Assembly: GCA_944322585.1 (NCBI GenBank)
Contig: CALUPB010000002.1
Coordinates: forward strand, 4,729 to 68,728
From: an uncultured Bacteroidales bacterium
Lineage (GTDB): Bacteria; Bacteroidota; Bacteroidia; Bacteroidales; UBA932
Direction: 5' to 3'
Length of the DNA: 64,000 nt
Shown: positions 5,928 to 13,254 of the stretch, piece by piece
How the letters are laid out: each line of letters opens with the position of its first letter
Position numbering within the stretch: the stretch's first letter is position 1
The notes under the pieces: model-generated
What the model saw: the letters and a program-made list of their open reading frames with translations, nothing else
Told to the model about the DNA's origin: nothing
Databases searched by the model: none
Program-made: the position numbers and the translations under genes

Positions 5928-8636
5928 CTACTTGGTGTCATCAAGAGCCTTCTGTAGATTGTAAAGAAGAGCCTCGTAATGGACACGGGTATCTCCGGAT
6001 GTCGAAGGGATGACGGACTTCAGCAACCGCGATATGCGCTGTACCTCACCGTAGAAAAGGGTCTTGGACTCATCGACTGTACGGGTGTTGACCCTGTACT
6101 GCCATCCGTAGCCCGCAGGACCGAATTCGACCGGAAGAATCCTGGAAGCCACATATCCCGTCCCGTACTCTTCATCGAGAGACCTGAACAGGTCGATATT
6201 CCCCGCAAGCATCCCGGTACGGTCAAGCCCGAATGCCACCATATGGTCTACAGACGGCATATATGCCGCATCCGGAGCCACAGAAGTGATGGAAGCCACC
6301 TTCACGAGTGTCGTCTTCTTGGTGACAGCCGTGGTAAGCATGGTGGCATAGAGATTCTGAAGAATACGGTCACCGGCATCCGGACGGCGGCCCTTGATGG
6401 CACTTTCCCAGACTCCTGCATACATGTCATCAAGCCAGTTCCTGAGAGTATATGCCTCTGCCGGGGAATCCGCCACATGGGACGAGAGCATCACATTCTT
6501 GTAGGTGTCGAAAAGCTCCAGCGCAGTATAATACTGGAAAATAGGTTCCAGGCTTACCCTGAGAGCGAATTTCTCCGTAAGATCCCTGTCCACGATCCAG
6601 TCGCAGTTCTTGAGCTGGTCGAGAGTCCATTTTACCGACTTGCGCTGGATTTCCTTAGGCACCGCCACAGCCGGATCGCCCGGAGTACCGGCCTTGACGG
6701 AAGTAAGATATATTCCGCCTATATTCAGCATCACGGCCTTGAGGTAGCGGTTGTACTGGTTGGCAAGATTCTCATACCGGCTTTCGCGCAGGGATGCATC
6801 CGGATCATACTCATCCGGCATCCACTCGTCAAAATGGGCAAGGATATACTTAAGGTTCTTCACTCCATAGTCGGCAGCCTTGACAGGATCATCGCCGAGA
6901 TCCTCCTCGATGGCACTCGGGTCATATCTGTGTACGACCTGCTGACGGCCATAACGGAATCTCGGGTCTCCCGCCCTGTCATCGACCCATTTTTCGATCA
7001 CCTTGGCCTCATCTTTCACTGTAGCGGCGTCAAGGACGGGCTCATAGGCATATTTTACAAGGAAATAGTCATAGACACCGAGCTGAGGAGGAGTCAGGGA
7101 CACGCCCTTGTCCTCCGGCTGGGCGACATAATTGAACCGGGCATAGTCCATTATGGACGGAGTAGTACCGTATTTCGCCGTAAATGAAGGGCTGCGGAGA
7201 GAATCCACTGGAAAAGCCGCAGAAGCAGCCATATTGTGCATGAAGCCGAGGCAATGGCCTACCTCATGGGCTATGACATATTCTATAGACTCGATGAGGA
7301 CATCATCCGGCATCTGCCTTGCCCTCACACGCGGGTCGAGCTGGGCGGTCTGGACAAACCGCCAGTTGTTGATGACTTTCAATATGTCATTATATACAAT
7401 GACCGACGCATTGATGATCTCACCGGTCGACGGGTCGACCCATGACGGCCCCATCGCATTGGCAATCATCGACGGAACATACCTGATGCATGAATACTTG
7501 AGATTGTCCGGGTCGAATTCCGGATCTTCATCAGGGGCAGGGAAATCCCTTACCTGCAAAGCGTTTTTGAAACCGATAGCCTCAAACGCCTTGTTCCAGC
7601 GGAGGACAGCCCTCTTTGCAGGCTCTTTCCAGAGAGCAGGGAAAGCATCATCTATATAGAATACTATGGGCTTGACCGGCTCCACCAGCTCCCCTCTCGC
7701 CCATGCGGCGGAGTCGGAAGGCTGGACATCCCAGCGGTGGATCACCGAATAGCGGTATATGCGGTCGACATCCGCATTGAGATCCGTCCTGCCCGTATTG
7801 AATATTCCCACGCGGGAATCGGACACGCGCGGACGCATTTTCTTCTCCGGAAGCAGCAGAATCGTACGGGTAACCCCGACGGAAAACGGCTGGTTGTCCT
7901 TCAGCCGTACAAGCTGCATCAGATTCGCGGAAACATTGTAGGAAAGAGTGGACTTGATTGTGACATTGTCCGAAAAGGCTTTTATCTCGCCCAACGATGT
8001 CCCGCTGCCGTTATAGGAGGCTGTTAAATTGATACCCCCCCCAGCGTTACCTGACTTTATCGGGGCAAGCTTGTCGTAACTGCCTGCAAACATCTTGGTC
8101 ACATCGAAAACCACAGCAGTGGAATCATTGTTCCAGCAAGTGAGTTTCCATGAATCGAGGACAGGATCCATTGAATTGAGTTTCACGGCCTTGGACATCT
8201 GTGCATTATCCTTGTCATAGTCAGGAAGGACATTGACCTCTGTCAGGAACACCGTGCTGTCCACCATGCTGAATTTGACATACATGGGAGCCGTCGGCTT
8301 GTAGCCGATGGAAGCGAGGTCCGCAGCACTTGTCTCCGATATGGTAGATGCAATCAGCATTTCGCGGTCAAGGGAAGATAGGGGAAGCTCTATGTACAGC
8401 TTGCCCTTGGACTTATGGAGAGTCATGAAACCTCCTTCGGCGCGTGCTGTCACACAATTTCTGTCTTTCACGAAAGTCTTGTCATATTTCGAGACTTTCT
8501 TCCTGTCGGCGGAATCTTTCTTTTCCGAAAGTTCCGTCTTCTGCTTCTTCCTGGATCTGGCATCAGCCCAACCGCTGTCGGTCACGGAAGGCACCAGTGC
8601 CAGGCACATAAGTACGATTAAAAGCCTTTTCATCAC
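5928..8636 (-). CDS. Zinc-dependent metalloprotease (DUF5117/DUF5118/DUF4953, EcxA-like metzincin)
   Basis: Signal peptide; HEVGHCLGFMH zinc motif followed by Met-turn SIMDY; DPRTGEI-like motif (VDPSTGEIINA). Confidence 0.9.
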   Translation of the reverse strand: MMKRLLIVLMCLALVPSVTDSGWADARSRKKQKTELSEKKDSADRKKVSKYDKTFVKDRNCVTARAEGGFMTLHKSKGKLYIELPLSSLDREMLIASTISETSAADLASIGYKPTAPMYVKFSMVDSTVFLTEVNVLPDYDKDNAQMSKAVKLNSMDPVLDSWKLTCWNNDSTAVVFDVTKMFAGSYDKLAPIKSGNAGGGINLTASYNGSGTSLGEIKAFSDNVTIKSTLSYNVSANLMQLVRLKDNQPFSVGVTRTILLLPEKKMRPRVSDSRVGIFNTGRTDLNADVDRIYRYSVIHRWDVQPSDSAAWARGELVEPVKPIVFYIDDAFPALWKEPAKRAVLRWNKAFEAIGFKNALQVRDFPAPDEDPEFDPDNLKYSCIRYVPSMIANAMGPSWVDPSTGEIINASVIVYNDILKVINNWRFVQTAQLDPRVRARQMPDDVLIESIEYVIAHEVGHCLGFMHNMAASAAFPVDSLRSPSFTAKYGTTPSIMDYARFNYVAQPEDKGVSLTPPQLGVYDYFLVKYAYEPVLDAATVKDEAKVIEKWVDDRAGDPRFRYGRQQVVHRYDPSAIEEDLGDDPVKAADYGVKNLKYILAHFDEWMPDEYDPDASLRESRYENLANQYNRYLKAVMLNIGGIYLTSVKAGTPGDPAVAVPKEIQRKSVKWTLDQLKNCDWIVDRDLTEKFALRVSLEPIFQYYTALELFDTYKNVMLSSHVADSPAEAYTLRNWLDDMYAGVWESAIKGRRPDAGDRILQNLYATMLTTAVTKKTTLVKVASITSVAPDAAYMPSVDHMVAFGLDRTGMLAGNIDLFRSLDEEYGTGYVASRILPVEFGPAGYGWQYRVNTRTVDESKTLFYGEVQRISRLLKSVIPSTSGDTRVHYEALLYNLQKALDDTK

Positions 8637-8689
8637 AATTTTTTAATATAAACTTTATAGCAAAACAGTGCAAGTTATAATTTTTTAAT

Positions 8690-8708
8690 TGAAAAATCAA
8701 ATCCGCTG
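8690..8708. repeat. Left copy of 19-bp direct repeat TGAAAAATCAAATCCGCTG
   Basis: Identical to 10200-10218. Confidence 0.95.
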
Positions 8709-8811
8709 TTCCTTGCCGGCGATTGTCTACTTTGGGAAAAATGTTCAACTGAAAAAATTTCCCCGTGTCTACTTTTCTGCGCTGCTATACATTGTTGCTG
8801 TATTGTTGCCA

Positions 8812-8868
8812 AAAAGTTCGGAACAAACTTGGCGAAAAGTTCGGAGTAAATTTGTCTAAAAGTTCGGA
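8812..8868 (+). repeat. Three direct repeats of AAAAGTTCGGA at 23-bp period
   Basis: Copies start at 8812, 8835 and 8858. Confidence 0.95.
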
Positions 8869-8881
8869 ATCCGTATCTTTG
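8851..8881 (+). promoter_or_regulatory. Bacteroidetes sigma-A promoter of the AAA/DUF4143 gene
   Basis: TTTG (8851-8854), 19-nt spacer, TATCTTTG (8874-8881). Confidence 0.75.
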
Positions 8882-8903
8882 CAGGAGAAATGAAACTTAC
8901 GCC

Positions 8904-10193
8904 ATGAAAAATGAACATTACAGACCTCGTATTTGTGACTCTCTTTTGCAGAGGAAATTACGGACGAGCGGAGCTGTTCTTATAACCGGCCCCAAATGGT
9001 GCGGAAAGACCTGGACGGCACTTAACGCGGCCAACAGCGTATTGTATATGCAAGATACCGACAGACGGGCTTCATATATGAAACTGGCACAGACAACCCC
9101 TTCGCTGTTGCTTCGCGGAGACCAGCCGCGACTTATAGACGAATGGCAGACGGCAACCGTATTGTGGGACACGGTAAGATATGCAGTCGATAAAGATCCG
9201 AAAAAAGGACAGTTTATTTTGACAGGAAGCGTTGTTGTGGATGATGAAGACAATGAGGATCCGTCAAAACGTATGGAACATACGGGAACAGGCCGGATAT
9301 CCCGTCTAAAAATGCGCCCGATGAGTCTGTTTGAAAGCGGTGAATCCAACGGCACCGTGTCCTTGAAGGCACTGTTTGAAGGTTCCGCAAAAGTGGAGTC
9401 GGTCAGCAGCCTTACAATTGAAGATCTCGCATACGCAATCTGCAGAGGCGGCTGGCCTGCGACCGTCGATATGGACAGGGAAGATGCGTTGGATGTCGCA
9501 TACGATTATTATACAGCCGTGGTGGAAAGGGATGCTTCCGCAGTGGACAAATCCCAGAAAGATCCAGACAGAATGCGCAGCATACTGAAGTCATTGGCCA
9601 GGAACATTTCAACGATGACTACAGACAGGACTATCATAGGAGATGTCAGGGCGAATGATGTGTCGATGACGGACAAGACCCTTGAAATTTATTTGAGGGC
9701 ACTGAGAAAGCTCTTTGTCGTAGAGGACATAAAGGCATGGCAACCGTCTCTACGTTCAAAGACAGGCATACGCACTTCAGACAAACGCCAGTTTGTTGAC
9801 CCGTCCATTGCCGTTGCCGCTCTCGGCATAAATCCGGAGGCAATCATTGAAGATTTCAATTATTTCGGATTTCTTTTCGAATCCCTGTGTACCCGTGATT
9901 TGAGAGTATATTCCGAGCCGTTGCGAGGTACCGTGAGGCATTACCATGACAACAATGGCCTCGAAGCAGACCTCATAATAAGTCTGGACAACGGCAAATG
10001 GGCAGCTGTGGAAGTGAAACTCGGAAGCAGGGAAATAGAGGAAGGGTCGGAGAATCTCAAGAAACTTGCATCCAATATAGATACGGAAAGATTTCCAGTC
10101 CCGTCGTTCCTGATGGTACTGACCGGAGGAGAATTTGCATATCGTCGCGATGACGGGGTATTCGTCGTCCCTATAGGCTGTCTGAAGGACTGA
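8904..10193 (+). CDS. AAA+ ATPase (AAA_14) with DUF4143 PD-(D/E)xK-like C-terminal domain
   Basis: Walker A GPKWCGKT, Walker B LIDEWQ, ILTGS, and C-terminal EADLII...AVEVKLG. Confidence 0.88.
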   Translation: MKNEHYRPRICDSLLQRKLRTSGAVLITGPKWCGKTWTALNAANSVLYMQDTDRRASYMKLAQTTPSLLLRGDQPRLIDEWQTATVLWDTVRYAVDKDPKKGQFILTGSVVVDDEDNEDPSKRMEHTGTGRISRLKMRPMSLFESGESNGTVSLKALFEGSAKVESVSSLTIEDLAYAICRGGWPATVDMDREDALDVAYDYYTAVVERDASAVDKSQKDPDRMRSILKSLARNISTMTTDRTIIGDVRANDVSMTDKTLEIYLRALRKLFVVEDIKAWQPSLRSKTGIRTSDKRQFVDPSIAVAALGINPEAIIEDFNYFGFLFESLCTRDLRVYSEPLRGTVRHYHDNNGLEADLIISLDNGKWAAVEVKLGSREIEEGSENLKKLASNIDTERFPVPSFLMVLTGGEFAYRRDDGVFVVPIGCLKD

Positions 10194-10199
10194 TTGCCC

Positions 10200-10218
10200 T
10201 GAAAAATCAAATCCGCTG
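10200..10218. repeat. Right copy of 19-bp direct repeat TGAAAAATCAAATCCGCTG
   Basis: Identical to 8690-8708; starts 7 bp after the AAA gene stop codon. Confidence 0.95.
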
Positions 10219-10220
10219 CA

Positions 10221-10252
10221 TTTGGCGAAAGACACAAAGATTGCTAAATTTG
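10221..10252 (+). promoter_or_regulatory. uvrA promoter
   Basis: TTTG (10221-10224), 20-nt spacer, TAAATTTG (10245-10252). Confidence 0.75.
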
Positions 10253-10347
10253 TCGGTATCTGTGCTTCCGGCATCGGGACAGACATCCGGTATCCGCCGG
10301 TCCTGTCCCTAAAGAGGAAGCGACAGAGCCGTATAATCATAAGCATC

Positions 10348-13254
10348 ATGCCGACAAAGACAGAATATATAGAAATACAGGGAGCACGGGCCCATAACCT
10401 TAAAGACGTTTCGCTGTCGATACCAAGAAACGAGTTCGTGGTCATAACGGGACTGAGCGGCAGCGGGAAATCTTCCCTGGCATTCGACACCATCTATGCA
10501 GAGGGCCAGAGACGGTATATGGATACCCTGTCGGCCTACGCCAAACAGTTCATGGGCATACTGGAAAAGCCTGAAGTGGAGAGCATCACCGGGCTGAGCC
10601 CCATCATTGCCATAGAACAGAAAACCACCGGCAACAATCCCCGTTCTACAGTGGGGACAATAACGGAAATATATGATTTTCTGAGACTTCTGTACGCCAA
10701 GGCATCCAAGGCTTATTCTCCCGCCACGGGAAAGGAAATGACAAGGTATACGGACGAACAGATAGTATCCCTCATAATGGACAGCTATGCCGGGAAGAAA
10801 TGCTATCTCCTCGCCCCTCTTGTCCGGGGACGTAAAGGTCATTACAAGGAACTTTTCGAACAGCTCAGACGGAGGGGATACACCCAGGTGCGCATAGACG
10901 GGGAACTTCACGATCTGCCGGAAGTAACCATGGTAGACAGGTACAAACCCCATTTCATCGAGCTCGTGGTGGACCGGCTGAAACCTGCCGCGAAAGACGC
11001 CAAAAGAATCAGGGAATCCGTAATGTCGGCCCTGAACCTCGGCAAAGGCTCCCTGGCCATTCTGGACCAGGACAGCGGGGAACTGCATCACTATTCCAAG
11101 CATCTCGTATGTCCGGACACGGGGCTGTCACTGCCGGAGCCGCAGCCGCATTCATTCTCATTCAACTCTCCCCAGGGCTACTGCCCCCACTGCAAGGGCC
11201 TCGGCAAGATAGTGGACATCAACATGGACGCCATCATCCCGGACAGGCATGTCTCGATAGCAGACGGAGGGATAGTGCCTCTCGGCAAGATCCGCGAAAC
11301 GAAGAAATTCGACATTATCCGCTCCATTGCACGCAAATACGGATTCGGCCTGTTCGAACCGATAGAAGACATTCCGGAAGAAGCCGTTTCCCTGATAATC
11401 TTCGGCTCCGACGAGCTTTTCCGTGTCGGGGAAGGGACAATGTCGGAAATGGTCAGTTACGGAGGGATAGTGGATGACATCCCGGACAAGATAACCTGTC
11501 CCGTATGCCATGGGACGAGGCTCAATCCGGAAGCCGGGTATTTCAGGATCGACGGGAAAACCATCTCCGAAGTTGCGGCAATGGAAATTTCCGACCTTAA
11601 AGTCTGGCTTGACAGTCTCGCGGGAAAATTCGACAGGCGCGAAAACCTGATTGCGAGGGACATCCTGAAAGAACTGAAGGAAAGGGTCGGCTTCCTGTTG
11701 GATGTAGGACTGGAATACCTTTCCCTCGACCGGGCAACCGGCTCGCTGTCAGGAGGAGAGAGCCAGAGGATAAGGCTCGCCACCCAGATAGGGTCCAAAT
11801 TGGTGAACGTCCTCTACATTTTGGACGAGCCGAGCATAGGCCTGCACCAGAGGGACAACCGCAAGCTTATCGCATCGCTCAAGAAACTGCGCGACGAGGG
11901 GAATTCCGTCATGGTGGTGGAGCATGACACCGAGACCATGCTTTCCGCCGACTGGCTTGTGGATGTCGGTCCCGGGGCAGGAGAACAGGGCGGAAAAATC
12001 TGCCTGTCAGCCCCTATGGATCTTCTCGTAAAGGAATATCCGGAAATAGCGGCATACAAGAACCGGGGAGCTTCCGGAACTGCCCGGGACAACCGGACCG
12101 GCATGGAAAACGGCAGCAAGGCAGGCACATGTACGGTCATGGACGACGGCCGGGACAGGGAGCATATGACAATCGGAGAATCCATCACGCTGGATTATCT
12201 GACAGGGAAACGCAGCATTGAAATCCCGGCAACGCGCAGGCCGGGCAACGGCTTCACGATAGGTATCCGGGGAGCCCGGGGCAACAACCTGAAAAACATA
12301 GATGTGGACTTCCCTCTCGGATGTCTTGTAGGCATAAGCGGAGTCAGCGGAAGCGGCAAGTCATCCCTTGTCAACGAAACGCTCATGCCCGTGCTCAAAA
12401 ACAAATTCTACAACGCACGTCTGCAGCCGCTCCCGCATGACAGCATAGTCGGTATCGAAAACATCGACAAGCTGATAGAAATCGACCAGAGCCCGATAGG
12501 AAGGACACCGAGAAGCAATCCGGCGACGTTCACCGGAGTATTCAACGACATCAGACAGCTGTTCGAGAACACGCCGGATGCGAAAGTAAGGGGTTTCAAG
12601 GCCGGAAGATTCTCTTTCAACGTAGCCGGAGGACGCTGCGAAGAATGCAAGGGAGCAGGGATAAAGGTCATCGAGATGAATTTCCTGCCGTCGGTCAATG
12701 TAGTCTGCCCGGAATGCCGGGGACGCAGATATAAGGAAGACACCCTTGCCGTAAAGTATAAAGGAAAGAATATCAACGATGTCCTGGAAATGTCCATTGA
12801 CGAAGCCTACGGCTTTTTCGGGAATATCCCGTCCATCGCACAGAAACTGAAGGCCCTCGTGGATGTGGGACTCGGATACATACGGCTCGGGCAGTCCGCA
12901 GTCACCCTTTCGGGAGGAGAAAGCCAAAGGATGAAACTGGCAGCCGAACTCGGGAGGAAAAGCACAGGGAACACCCTCTATATACTTGACGAACCCACAA
13001 CCGGGCTGCACAGCGAAGACATAAAGGTCCTGCTCGGAGTCCTCCAGCAACTTGTGGACAGGGGCAATACCATAATAATAATAGAACACAACATAGACGT
13101 CCTGAAAAGCGTGGACTACCTCTTCGACATGGGGCCGGAAGGCGGCAAGGGAGGCGGGCTCATAGTAGCCCGGGGGACACCGGAGCAGATTGCCCGCGAC
13201 CCTATGTCCGTGACAGGCCCGTTCCTTGCGGAAGCCCTCGGGACAAGACAATAA
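10348..13254 (+). CDS. uvrA: Excinuclease ABC subunit A
   Basis: Likely start MPTKTEYIEIQGARAHNLK at 10348; two ABC modules (GLSGSGKSSL, LSGGESQRIRLA, GVSGSGKSSL, LSGGESQRMKLA); CxxC zinc fingers. Confidence 0.98.
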   Translation: MPTKTEYIEIQGARAHNLKDVSLSIPRNEFVVITGLSGSGKSSLAFDTIYAEGQRRYMDTLSAYAKQFMGILEKPEVESITGLSPIIAIEQKTTGNNPRSTVGTITEIYDFLRLLYAKASKAYSPATGKEMTRYTDEQIVSLIMDSYAGKKCYLLAPLVRGRKGHYKELFEQLRRRGYTQVRIDGELHDLPEVTMVDRYKPHFIELVVDRLKPAAKDAKRIRESVMSALNLGKGSLAILDQDSGELHHYSKHLVCPDTGLSLPEPQPHSFSFNSPQGYCPHCKGLGKIVDINMDAIIPDRHVSIADGGIVPLGKIRETKKFDIIRSIARKYGFGLFEPIEDIPEEAVSLIIFGSDELFRVGEGTMSEMVSYGGIVDDIPDKITCPVCHGTRLNPEAGYFRIDGKTISEVAAMEISDLKVWLDSLAGKFDRRENLIARDILKELKERVGFLLDVGLEYLSLDRATGSLSGGESQRIRLATQIGSKLVNVLYILDEPSIGLHQRDNRKLIASLKKLRDEGNSVMVVEHDTETMLSADWLVDVGPGAGEQGGKICLSAPMDLLVKEYPEIAAYKNRGASGTARDNRTGMENGSKAGTCTVMDDGRDREHMTIGESITLDYLTGKRSIEIPATRRPGNGFTIGIRGARGNNLKNIDVDFPLGCLVGISGVSGSGKSSLVNETLMPVLKNKFYNARLQPLPHDSIVGIENIDKLIEIDQSPIGRTPRSNPATFTGVFNDIRQLFENTPDAKVRGFKAGRFSFNVAGGRCEECKGAGIKVIEMNFLPSVNVVCPECRGRRYKEDTLAVKYKGKNINDVLEMSIDEAYGFFGNIPSIAQKLKALVDVGLGYIRLGQSAVTLSGGESQRMKLAAELGRKSTGNTLYILDEPTTGLHSEDIKVLLGVLQQLVDRGNTIIIIEHNIDVLKSVDYLFDMGPEGGKGGGLIVARGTPEQIARDPMSVTGPFLAEALGTRQ

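What the first reader, a model, noticed from the sequence alone, without database searches (positions are those of the whole stretch)
8690..10218. ATPase-nuclease gene in a 1510-bp cassette bounded by a perfect 19-bp direct repeat
Seen: TGAAAAATCAAATCCGCTG occurs at 8690-8708 and at 10200-10218. The segment holds only a promoter, an operator-like repeat array and the AAA_14/DUF4143 gene, whose stop lies 6 bp before the right copy. Removing one copy plus the interval leaves a compact divergent promoter region between the protease operon and uvrA, with the uvrA TTTG/TAAATTTG promoter intact. No integrase or transposase is present. Inference: a self-contained single-gene cassette inserted by site-specific or microhomology recombination, possibly an excisable defence or selfish unit. 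These genes are common and scattered in Bacteroidales, and I know no described mechanism for their spread.
Basis: partly seen in the sequence, partly recalled or inferred. Interest (0 to 1): 0.72.

Follow-up and report, generated by a model that had tools for sequence, protein, structure and literature searches.

The report
One-gene ATPase-nuclease cassette, 19-bp target duplication
A 1.5-kb piece of foreign DNA carrying one self-regulated ATPase-nuclease gene (an untested candidate anti-phage gene) was inserted between a protease operon and the repair gene uvrA, copying 19 bases of the target to both sides with no recombinase in sight; a sister lineage still shows the empty site.

Summary
TGAAAAATCAAATCCGCTG occurs at 8690-8708 and 10200-10218 and nowhere else in the 2.87-Mb genome. 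The two copies bracket only a promoter and repeat module and one AAA_14/DUF4143 gene (PADLOC candidate PDC-S01).

The predicted empty site exists. In a sister-lineage contig (zincin 84% identical, UvrA 90%), zincin and uvrA are directly adjacent. One copy of the repeat core sits between the same two flanks, so the 19-mer is target sequence duplicated at insertion.

The same genome holds a second case. A related ATPase_2 plus PD-(D/E)xK gene has a 25-bp target duplication, and at least 15 genus relatives carry its empty site. These are the only two isolated repeat-bounded single genes among 1287 long ORFs.

Flanking repeats are enriched in both gene families: 11 of 76 loci against 3 of 2000 controls, and 8 of 28 against 2 of 200.

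No integrase lies on either contig, and cassette A has no terminal inverted repeats. No excision junction appears in 12 public runs.

The closest known parallel is the unexplained "insertion with long target duplication" of restriction-modification genes. The enzyme responsible remains unknown. A short-homology (att-like) route is not excluded, because a related upstream module elsewhere carries 13 of 14 bases of the repeat.

The parts
8690..8708 (.). Left copy of the 19-bp direct repeat (duplicated target sequence)
   Evidence: This is an exact match to 10200-10218. Homology to the sister empty site runs from the zincin side into this copy and stops at about 8705.
8709..8807 (+). 5' part of the insert. 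It holds two TGTCTACTTT units (8724-8733, 8766-8775) and a 30-nt box (8748-8777).
   Evidence: This segment is absent from the sister empty site. The box is 29/30 identical upstream of a divergent ATPase paralogue at G000:C1:136283-136312. Positions 8719-8777 are about 88% identical to the upstream region of another ATPase gene in G059.
8806..8874 (+). Three tandem 23-bp units (core AAAAGTTCGGA), an operator-like array
   Evidence: Found by the repeat finder as family D1. The array is conserved upstream of homologues 84-86% identical at other loci (L023, L024, L026).
8850..8881 (+). Cassette promoter: TTTG (8850-8853), 20 nt, then TATCTTTG (8874-8881). This matches the Bacteroidota TTTG/TAnnTTTG type.
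   Evidence: Read directly from the sequence. The consensus is recalled from general knowledge of Bacteroides promoters. It was not tested experimentally.
8904..10193 (+). AAA_14/DUF4143 gene (429 aa): an AAA+ ATPase, a helical/winged-helix middle part and a C-terminal PD-(D/E)xK nuclease
   Evidence: Pfam gives 1.2e-11 and 4.7e-30. PADLOC PDC-S01 gives 2.7e-62. Walker A G29-T36, Walker B D79/E80 and nuclease residues E354, D356, E370 and K372 are invariant in 30 homologues. The AlphaFold model has pLDDT 91.9. Its best PDB matches are the archaeal AAA+ ATPases 2qen and 2fna, Orc/Cdc6, RFC and Card1/Cdn1.
10194..10199 (+). 6-bp tail (TTGCCC) between the stop codon and the right repeat, the 3' end of the insert
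   Evidence: Read from the sequence. DNA homology to cassette relatives ends at 10183-10205.
10200..10218 (.). Right copy of the 19-bp direct repeat (target sequence in its native place before the uvrA promoter)
   Evidence: Homology to the sister empty site starts at about 10203 and continues through the uvrA promoter. A 15/19 look-alike lies before the uvrA -7 box in the genus relative G020.
10221..10252 (+). uvrA promoter: TTTG (10221-10224), 20 nt, then TAAATTTG (10245-10252). It was left intact by the insertion.
   Evidence: Read from the sequence. AAAGATTGCTAAATTTG is identical in the sister contig.
5928..8636 (-). Left neighbour: a Met-zincin lipoprotein (DUF5118/DUF5117/DUF4953), first gene of a SusC/SusD operon, divergent from the cassette
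   Evidence: Pfam assignment and the gene table of contigs carrying the identical protein.
10348..13254 (+). Right neighbour: uvrA
   Evidence: Pfam UvrA_inter, UvrA_DNA-bind and ABC_tran.

Best explanation
Window 8709-10199 (1491 bp) is a horizontally acquired one-gene cassette. It consists of an upstream module with an operator-like repeat array, its own promoter, and an ORF that ends 6 bp before the insert boundary. The cassette was inserted into the short divergent promoter region between the zincin/SusCD operon and uvrA. The insertion duplicated 19 bp of the target, so both neighbours kept their promoter-proximal sequence.

The footprint has three features: a target-derived direct repeat, no terminal inverted repeats, and no recombinase gene. 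In relatives the repeat length varies from locus to locus. This is the footprint of 'insertion with (long) target duplication'.

The most likely route is inferred, not shown. The target was opened by nicks on opposite strands 19 nt apart. The incoming DNA was joined to the protruding ends, and the single-stranded gaps were filled in, which produced the duplication. The enzyme is unknown. Candidates are the cassette's own AAA+/PD-(D/E)xK protein or host repair functions.

Once inserted, the gene is probably autoregulated through its repeat array. It probably acts as an NTP-dependent nuclease of the defence or selfish type (PDC-S01). Both of these points are inferred.

What is shown: the insertion, the target origin of the repeat, the recurrence in a second cassette in this genome and across two gene families, and the conservation of the catalytic residues.

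The stated confidence of 0.6 is for the staggered-cut, fill-in type of target duplication. That the segment is an inserted foreign cassette with a target-derived repeat I hold at about 0.9.
For: 1. Empty site. Logan contig L145 comes from a sister lineage (zincin 84% aa, UvrA 90% aa). There zincin and uvrA are divergent neighbours with a 117-bp spacer and no DUF4143 gene. That spacer aligns at 76.6% (164/214) with own left flank plus one 19-mer plus right flank. Its single AAAATCAAATCC aligns to both repeat copies, and homology breaks at the inner edges of the repeats.

2. Second case in the same genome. G000:C5:12357-13903 carries a 477-aa ATPase_2 protein with a D...ExK end. It lies between the divergent sigma-54 response regulator and cmk and is flanked by a perfect 25-bp repeat. 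In at least 15 genus relatives the two genes are adjacent (54-140 bp apart). Their conserved spacer is colinear with own left flank plus one repeat plus right flank.

3. Genome background. Only these two isolated cases occur among 1287 ORFs.

4. Family enrichment. For cassette A's family, 11 of 76 homologue loci from many phyla have exact flanking repeats of at least 17 nt, against 3 of 2000 shuffled pairs. For cassette B's family, the figures are 8 of 28 against 2 of 200.

5. Different contexts. Homologues 84-86% identical sit between unrelated genes in other genomes. DNA homology to them covers only the array plus the ORF, 8808-10205.

6. Foreign character. GC content is 47.7% against 52-54% in the flanks. 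The closest homologues are not in the genus.

7. No mobility machinery. No integrase lies on contig C2 or C5. No terminal inverted repeats were found. No mobility gene lies within 5 kb.

8. Precedent. The same footprint, with mechanism unknown, was described for restriction-modification and mcrA genes (PMC2853133).
Against: 1. The duplications here (19 and 25 bp) are shorter than the 30-bp threshold used to define 'long target duplication'. They fall in the range of att cores and of IS1630 duplications (PMC2853133).

2. A related upstream module in G059 carries TGTAAAATCAAATC, 13/14 identical to the start of the repeat. It lies 27 nt before the homologous GCGATTGTCTAC, against 29 nt here. A metagenome contig of another organism has the same arrangement. 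The 11-mer core occurs only 6 times in this genome. This points to joining at a short stretch of homology rather than at a random staggered cut.

3. For cassette A only one empty-site relative exists, so loss in the sister lineage by recombination between the repeats cannot be formally excluded.

4. No event has been observed. All sampled strains carry the cassette, and no junction reads were found.

5. Some flanking repeats in relatives are not target duplications. They are tandem gene copies or copies of the gene's own operator (L024, L041, L049, L172-L174).
Confidence: 0.6

Rival explanations
1. Campbell-type integration of a circular cassette at a short stretch of shared sequence, like attP x attB or a minimal homology. 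Host recombination or a recombinase encoded elsewhere would carry it out. The 19-mer would be the shared core, and the cassette would be excisable through the same repeats.
For: The repeat core is present in the empty target (L145). It is also present, at 13/14, at the equivalent position of a related upstream module in G059 and in an X5 metagenome contig. The repeats of 19 and 25 bp are of att-core size (PMC2853133). Some relatives are flanked by two copies of their own array (L024, 66 bp at 98%). 'Solo' arrays without a gene exist in G015 and G017, as expected if flanking repeats recombine. Eight tyrosine-recombinase genes exist elsewhere in the genome.
Against: The two cassettes in this genome have unrelated repeats, and each repeat is the native sequence of its own target. 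Close homologues of the gene sit at unrelated sites. No look-alike of the 25-mer occurs in relatives of cassette B. The 19-mer is identical in both copies even at positions where the sister target and the G059 motif differ. That would require 19 bp of pre-existing identity. No integrase lies on either contig. No excision or circle junction was seen in 12 runs.
Confidence: 0.22
2. The cassette is an autonomous one-gene mobile element. Its own AAA+/winged-helix/PD-(D/E)xK protein would bind the repeat array and make the cuts in donor and target that give variable target duplications.
For: Two different but structurally related ATPase-nuclease families show the same footprint. The insert ends within 0-6 bp of the stop codon in both cassettes here and in several relatives. 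That is typical of elements whose single ORF fills them. Each paralogue has its own repeat array at its 5' end. The Walker and nuclease residues are invariant.
Against: There is no experimental or sequence evidence that the protein acts on its own ends. No repeat unit sits at the 3' end of this cassette. The same footprint exists for unrelated restriction-modification genes (PMC2853133), which argues for a general host-side or break-repair route. Most family members (about 85%) have no flanking repeat.
Confidence: 0.13
3. The gene is ancestral at this locus, and the sister lineage lost it by recombination between the two 19-mers. The 'empty site' would then be a scar, not the naive target.
For: Only one empty-site relative is available. 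Zincin-uvrA adjacency is not found in the other 60 genus representatives, so the polarity rests on two taxa.
Against: The repeat itself would still need an insertion to explain it. G020, which has a different upstream neighbour and no cassette, has a 15/19 look-alike before the uvrA promoter. The cassette has lower GC than its flanks, and its closest relatives lie outside the genus. For the parallel cassette B, the polarity is clear from at least 15 empty relatives.
Confidence: 0.05
4. The repeat is a chance match, or a functional motif present twice, unrelated to the gene's history.
For: The sequence is A/T-rich and lies in promoter regions where similar words recur.
Against: Only 0.01 matches are expected in the window, and there are none elsewhere in the genome. 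Homology to the empty site breaks exactly at the inner edges of the repeats. A second identical anatomy exists in the same genome.
Confidence: 0.01

Closest known systems
Insertion with long target duplication of restriction-modification and Type IV restriction genes (Nobusato et al. 2000 Gene 259:99; Furuta, Abe and Kobayashi 2010, PMC2853133)
   Same: In both, a small gene unit is inserted with a direct duplication of target sequence that is single-copy at the empty site. The duplication has a different sequence and length at each locus. There is no transposase, integrase or inverted repeat. Insertions often sit at gene boundaries, so the neighbours stay intact. The cargo is a nuclease-type conflict gene, and the mechanism is unknown.
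   Different: The cargo here is a single AAA+/PD-(D/E)xK gene, not an R-M pair. The duplications here are 19 and 25 bp, below the 30-bp cut-off those authors used. The host is a Bacteroidales gut anaerobe rather than the mostly naturally competent Proteobacteria. One junction lies in a stretch that relatives of the incoming DNA also carry.
PADLOC phage-defence candidate PDC-S01 (Pfam AAA_14 + DUF4143, COG1373)
   Same: There is a full-length HMM match (2.7e-62), the same two-domain architecture, and the same single-gene system.
   Different: PDC-S01 is defined by sequence and genomic neighbourhood only. No defence activity, regulation or mode of spread is described for it. Only 4 papers in the library mention DUF4143, and none concerns mobility.
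IS1630 of Mycoplasma fermentans (IS30 family), target duplications of 19-26 bp (cited in PMC2853133)
   Same: The target duplications are of the same unusual length range and are variable.
   Different: IS1630 encodes a DDE transposase and has terminal inverted repeats. Neither is present here.
Integrase-mobilised small elements with att direct repeats (NBU-type or CIME-like elements, integron cassettes)
   Same: A short direct repeat flanks a small cargo, and excision through the repeats is conceivable.
   Different: No integrase lies in cis or on the contig. No attC-like structure was found. The repeat sequence differs between the two cassettes and is the native sequence of each target.

Membership tests
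Insertion with long target duplication (Nobusato 2000 / Furuta 2010) | The inserted segment is flanked by direct repeats. | tested here: met
   A 19/19 repeat lies at 8690 and 10200. A 25/25 repeat flanks cassette B.
Insertion with long target duplication (Nobusato 2000 / Furuta 2010) | The repeat sequence is present once at the corresponding empty site of a related genome. | tested here: met
   Sister contig L145 provides the empty site for cassette A. At least 15 genus relatives provide it for cassette B.
Insertion with long target duplication (Nobusato 2000 / Furuta 2010) | The duplication is longer than 30 bp (the criterion used to exclude site-specific recombination) and varies between events. 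| tested here: not met
   The duplications here are 19 bp and 25 bp. Variable length is met across relatives: 17-103 bp in family A and up to 310 bp in family B.
Insertion with long target duplication (Nobusato 2000 / Furuta 2010) | No transposase, integrase or terminal inverted repeats lie in or next to the insert. | tested here: met
   No PF00589 match exists on contigs C2 or C5. The neighbours are SusC/D, zincin, UvrA and PRK. No terminal inverted repeat was found. Transposase families were not scanned one by one.
Insertion with long target duplication (Nobusato 2000 / Furuta 2010) | The cargo is a restriction-modification or restriction gene. | tested here: not met
   The cargo is an AAA_14/DUF4143 ATPase-nuclease with no methyltransferase.
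PADLOC PDC-S01 / Pfam AAA_14 + DUF4143 | Full-length match to the family models above the curated cut-offs. | tested here: met
   PDLC04790 matches at 2.7e-62 over residues 5-427. PF13173 scores 45.1 bits against a cut-off of 27, and PF13635 scores 104.9 bits against 28.1.
PADLOC PDC-S01 / Pfam AAA_14 + DUF4143 | Intact Walker A/B and PD-(D/E)xK catalytic residues. | tested here: met
   G29, K31, G34, K35, T36, D79, E80, E354, D356, E370 and K372 are invariant in 30 homologues. The fold model is confident.
PADLOC PDC-S01 / Pfam AAA_14 + DUF4143 | Protects against phage. | not testable with these tools
No paper in the library reports one.
Classical insertion sequence / transposon | A transposase gene and terminal inverted repeats. 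| tested here: not met
   The only ORF is AAA_14/DUF4143. No inverted repeat joins the two ends.
Integrase-dependent integrative element (att core repeats) | A tyrosine or serine recombinase in cis, and the same att core at independent insertions. | tested here: not met
   No integrase lies on the contig. Cassettes A and B have unrelated repeats. Homologues lie at unrelated sites. Action of a recombinase in trans cannot be tested here.

The most novel reading that the evidence does not exclude
AAA+/PD-(D/E)xK single-gene 'defence candidates' (PDC-S01 and the related ATPase_2 family) may be autonomous, recombinase-free mobile elements. On this reading the one protein binds its own 5' repeat array. 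It cuts donor and target at positions tens of bases apart and so inserts its gene, which ends at its stop codon, into promoter regions or gene boundaries. This would create target duplications of variable length. It would be a new class of minimal selfish element and would change how these very common 'defence genes' are read.
Probability: 0.13. Interest if true: 0.9.

Novelty: new variant of a known kind. Interest (0 to 1): 0.62.

Why it matters
DUF4143/COG1373 ATPases are among the most numerous unexplained genes of Bacteroidales and of many other bacteria and archaea. This 2.9-Mb genome has about 13 of them. They are listed as candidate phage-defence genes, yet nothing is published on how they spread.

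This locus gives a clean occupied/empty pair, and the same genome gives a second, independent pair for a related gene family. Together they show that such genes arrive as one-gene cassettes with their own promoter. They land between divergent promoters without disrupting either neighbour, and they duplicate about two helical turns of target without any recognisable recombinase.

This extends an unexplained mode of gene mobility, described in 2000-2010 for restriction-modification systems, to a different and far more abundant class of nuclease genes. It also provides concrete substrates for an experimental test of the mechanism: a 1.5-kb unit with defined ends and a known empty target.

Tried and rejected
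1. Empty site among 40 close relatives and 60 genus representatives. uvrA is found everywhere, but neither zincin nor DUF4143 lies within 1.5 kb upstream of it. The closest zincin orthologue is only 59% identical. These genomes are too distant, so I switched to protein look-ups in metagenome assemblies, which found L145.

2. Empty allele or excision within the species. None was found in 19 contigs carrying the identical zincin protein or in contigs of 12 runs. The runs came from at least 8 studies and include 2 metatranscriptomes. Contigs drop rare variants, so rare excision is not excluded. An exact-protein look-up of UvrA with the ATG start found nothing, because the gene callers use a TTG start.

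3. Rfam scan of 8400-10500. No match was found.

4. Direct repeats around the other 12 AAA_14/DUF4143 paralogues. None was found, exact or inexact.

5. The 30-nt box as a genus-wide cassette signature. This was rejected. It occurs only twice in this genome and once in G059 among 61 genomes.

6. Assembly artefact. This was rejected. Independent Logan assemblies from several studies reproduce both junctions.

7. Sequence search of the PDB. It found no match, whereas the fold search was informative.

Full report
**1. The observation**

The 19-mer TGAAAAATCAAATCCGCTG lies at 8690-8708 and 10200-10218. No third copy exists in the window, even with 3 mismatches (0.01 expected). None exists in the whole 2.87-Mb assembly with 2 mismatches. 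The window is G000:C2:4729-68728.

Between the copies there is one real gene, 8904-10193. It encodes a 429-aa AAA_14 + DUF4143 protein. Its stop codon lies 6 bp before the right copy. Upstream of the gene lie two TGTCTACTTT units, a 30-nt box (8748-8777), and three tandem 23-bp units with the core AAAAGTTCGGA (8806-8874). The tandem units overlap a TTTG-N20-TATCTTTG promoter-like pair.

The left neighbour is a divergent Met-zincin gene that heads a SusC/SusD operon. The right neighbour is uvrA, with its own TTTG-N20-TAAATTTG pair immediately after the right copy. Rfam finds nothing in the region.

**2. The empty site exists**

Species representatives of the genus are too distant to help. uvrA is about 72% identical at protein level, the best zincin orthologue is 59% identical, and zincin is never next to uvrA.

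A search for closer zincin proteins in metagenome assemblies found one at 84% identity. Its contig L145 (Logan, 17.7 kb) carries the same zincin-SusC-SusD-DUF4843 operon. Divergently, 117 bp away, it carries the start of uvrA (90% identical over 202 residues). It has no DUF4143 gene.

I joined the two flanks of the window with a single 19-mer and aligned the result to this spacer. Identity is 164/214 (76.6%). It includes GCAAGTTA-AAT-TTTTAATT on the left and AAAGATTGCTAAATTTG on the right.

The sister's single AAAATCAAATCC aligns to both repeat copies. In the occupied locus, homology stops at about 8705 on the left and resumes at about 10203 on the right. The 19-mer is therefore target sequence that became duplicated when 8709-10199 was inserted.

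A 15/19 look-alike (TAAAAAATAAAAACCGCTG) lies just before the uvrA -7 box in G020. That relative has the closest uvrA and a different upstream neighbour. This agrees with the right copy being native uvrA upstream sequence.

**3. A second, independent case in the same genome**

I screened all local direct repeats and all ATPase paralogues. This turned up G000:C5:12357-13903, a 477-aa protein with an ATPase_2 domain and a C-terminal IDLVID...CEMK motif. It lies on the minus strand between the divergent sigma-54 response regulator and cmk.

It is flanked by a perfect 25-bp repeat, AAATTTCCGTCTTTACACAAATTTT. Two bases of its TAA stop codon lie inside the repeat.

In at least 15 genus relatives the response regulator and cmk are adjacent, 54-140 bp apart. 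Their conserved spacer reads ACAAATATCG(G)AC - ATTTTTGGGAGTTTACACAATATTT - TATAATTTTG. It is colinear with own left flank plus one repeat plus right flank. Here the polarity is unambiguous: this is an insertion with a 25-bp target duplication.

Among 1287 ORFs of at least 300 aa in this genome, only four have an exact flanking repeat of 15 nt or more. Two belong to a tandem paralogue array. The other two are these cassettes. None of the other 12 AAA_14/DUF4143 paralogues has a flanking repeat.

**4. The footprint recurs in both gene families**

The gene has thousands of homologues. Three homologues at 84-86% identity lie between unrelated genes: an OEP efflux gene and a hemerythrin/GerE gene, ftsZ and a tricorn protease gene, and after a 2-hydroxyacid dehydrogenase gene. 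DNA homology to the window covers only the array, the promoter and the ORF (8808-10205).

Of 76 homologue loci from species-representative genomes of many phyla, 11 have exact flanking repeats of 17-41 nt. Shuffled upstream/downstream pairs give 3 of 2000. The set includes 57-58% identical copies in a spirochaete and in the archaeon Methanocorpusculum.

With mismatches allowed, the repeats extend to 25-103 bp. Not all are target duplications. L041 and L049 are tandem gene copies. In L024 the whole AAAAGTTCGGA array (66 bp, 98%) is repeated 3 bp after the stop.

For the family of cassette B, 8 of 28 order-level loci have flanking repeats, against 2 of 200 controls. Some of these are long target duplications (124 and 310 bp). 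Others are the gene's own palindromic operator repeated right after the stop.

**5. What the gene is**

It matches the PADLOC candidate PDC-S01 over its full length (2.7e-62). No NCBIfam model matches, and no PDB sequence relative exists.

In 30 homologues (42-86% identical), the Walker A residues (G29-T36), the Walker B residues (D79, E80) and the nuclease residues E354, D356, E370 and K372 are invariant.

The AlphaFold model is confident (pLDDT 91.9). It is closest to the archaeal AAA+ ATPases PAB2304 and SSO1545, then to Orc/Cdc6 and RFC subunits. Its C-terminal part resembles the Card1/Cdn1 nucleases. Structurally, therefore, the proteins of cassettes A and B belong to one broad class: an Orc-like AAA+ ATPase with a PD-(D/E)xK end.

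DUF4143 is classified as PD-(D/E)XK with unknown function (PMC3424549). COG1373 genes are among those shared between genera in chicken and pig gut isolates (PMC10782964). Only four papers in the library mention DUF4143, and none treats mobility.

**6. Population data**

Contigs from at least 9 DNA or RNA runs of at least 8 studies (chicken gut, faeces, air) reproduce both junctions. None of the 12 runs laid shows a deletion or circle joint. All 19 contigs carrying the identical zincin protein have the same neighbours wherever the flank is long enough. The cassette is fixed in the sampled species.

It carries at most 1 SNP per 1.5 kb, even in strains whose zincin 5' end (8487-8604) differs at about 20 positions. 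One strain type has T8690C, which reduces the repeat to 18/19.

Metatranscriptome contigs cover parts of the gene at depths similar to the neighbours. This is weak evidence of expression, because DNA carry-over cannot be excluded.

GC content is 47.7% for the cassette and 46.9% for cassette B, against 52-54% for the flanking genes and 50.8% for the genome.

**7. Mechanism**

The following points are shown: the insertion, the target origin of the repeat, the absence of integrase on both contigs, and, for cassette A, the absence of terminal inverted repeats and of neighbouring mobility genes.

This is the footprint that Kobayashi's group named 'insertion with long target duplication' for restriction-modification and mcrA genes. 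They left it mechanistically unexplained (PMC2853133). The difference is that 19 and 25 bp fall below their 30-bp cut-off. These lengths lie in the range of att cores and of IS1630 duplications.

I favour a staggered opening of the target followed by fill-in (confidence about 0.6). This model makes the two copies identical by construction, it needs no pre-existing identity, and it accounts for the different sequence and length at each locus.

One observation argues for a role of short homology at the left junction. The upstream module 8719-8886 is homologous to the upstream region of a different ATPase paralogue in G059. In G059, TGTAAAATCAAATC (13/14 identical to the start of the repeat) lies 27 nt before the homologous GCGATTGTCTAC, against 29 nt here. 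A contig of another organism in run X5 shows the same arrangement. The 11-mer core occurs only six times in this genome.

'Solo' AAAAGTTCGGA arrays without a gene in G015 and G017, and array-flanked genes such as L024, suggest that recombination between flanking repeats does occur in this family.

Whether the cassette's own nuclease makes the cuts is pure inference. It is the most novel reading that remains (probability about 0.13).

**8. Earlier notes of this scan**

The notes report the same footprint around DUF4143 genes in many other genomes, with duplications of 26-262 bp. They pointed me to the Nobusato and Furuta papers, and I then read the Furuta paper.

My family enrichment test and both empty-site demonstrations are independent of those notes. 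The notes do not cover this locus, cassette B or its family.

**9. Verdict**

It is a new variant of a known but unexplained kind of gene mobility. This locus has unusually clean evidence: two occupied/empty pairs in one genome, for two related gene families.

Noticed in passing
G000:C5:12332-13928 (locus L123 3333-4929), outside the window: This is a second one-gene cassette. It encodes a 477-aa ATPase_2 protein with a D...ExK C-terminus and lies between the divergent sigma-54 response regulator and cmk. It is flanked by a perfect 25-bp repeat that is single-copy in the conserved spacer of at least 15 genus relatives. Two bases of the TAA stop codon lie inside the repeat.
   Followed up: yes
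window 8719-8886; G000:C1:136150-136450; L183 1433-1620 (G059:C12): The upstream module of the cassette holds TGTCTACTTT units, a 30-nt box, three AAAAGT-type units and a GTATCTTTGC promoter. It is shared with the upstream regions of quite different AAA ATPase paralogues whose proteins are not detectable by tblastn. The box is 29/30 identical in C1. This suggests a common regulator or modular exchange of promoter modules.
   Followed up: partly
upstream 330 bp of each AAA_14/DUF4143 paralogue of G000 (for example C5:166300-166620, C11:35200-35380, C8:32240-32400, C20:44700-44910): Every paralogue has its own specific 2-4-fold repeat or palindrome array overlapping a TAnnTTTG promoter. Examples are TCATTGAGGGA x3, GCACTAATTTTAGTGC x2 and GAAAAGTGTA x4. 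This looks like one private operator per gene.
   Followed up: no
L181 about 1961-1994 (G015:C27) and L182 2025-2058 (G017:C31): These are 'solo' AAAAGTTCGGA arrays (two units plus a promoter-like TTATTTTTG), 92-95% identical to the window's array, with no DUF4143 gene behind them. They may be scars of cassette loss or orphan promoters.
   Followed up: partly
L024 3894-3959 and 5290-5355; L025 (1420-bp Logan contig): In a homologue 85% identical, the whole 66-bp operator array is repeated 3 bp after the stop codon (98% identical). The gene is therefore bracketed by its own array rather than by target sequence.
   Followed up: partly
window 8487-8604: The 5' end of the zincin gene (signal-peptide/lipoprotein region) differs at about 20 of 118 positions between strain types (runs X13, X17, X25, X30). 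The adjacent cassette is virtually invariant. This is a local recombination import or diversifying region.
   Followed up: no
L037, L038: Homologues 57-58% identical to this Bacteroidales protein occur in a Rectinemataceae spirochaete and in the archaeon Methanocorpusculum petauri. This is far closer than the host phylogeny allows and implies inter-domain transfer.
   Followed up: no
window 8300-8736 and 8717-9118: In two metatranscriptome runs, a contig continuous with zincin runs up to 8736, which is inside the insert. Another contig starts at 8717, about 150 nt upstream of the predicted cassette promoter. Transcription may start or read through within the 5' module. The contigs have no strand information, and DNA carry-over is possible.
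   Followed up: no
G000:C12:25167-25573: This is a truncated fragment (about 130 aa in two frames, 49-50% identical) of a gene of the same subfamily. It is a decayed second copy.
   Followed up: no
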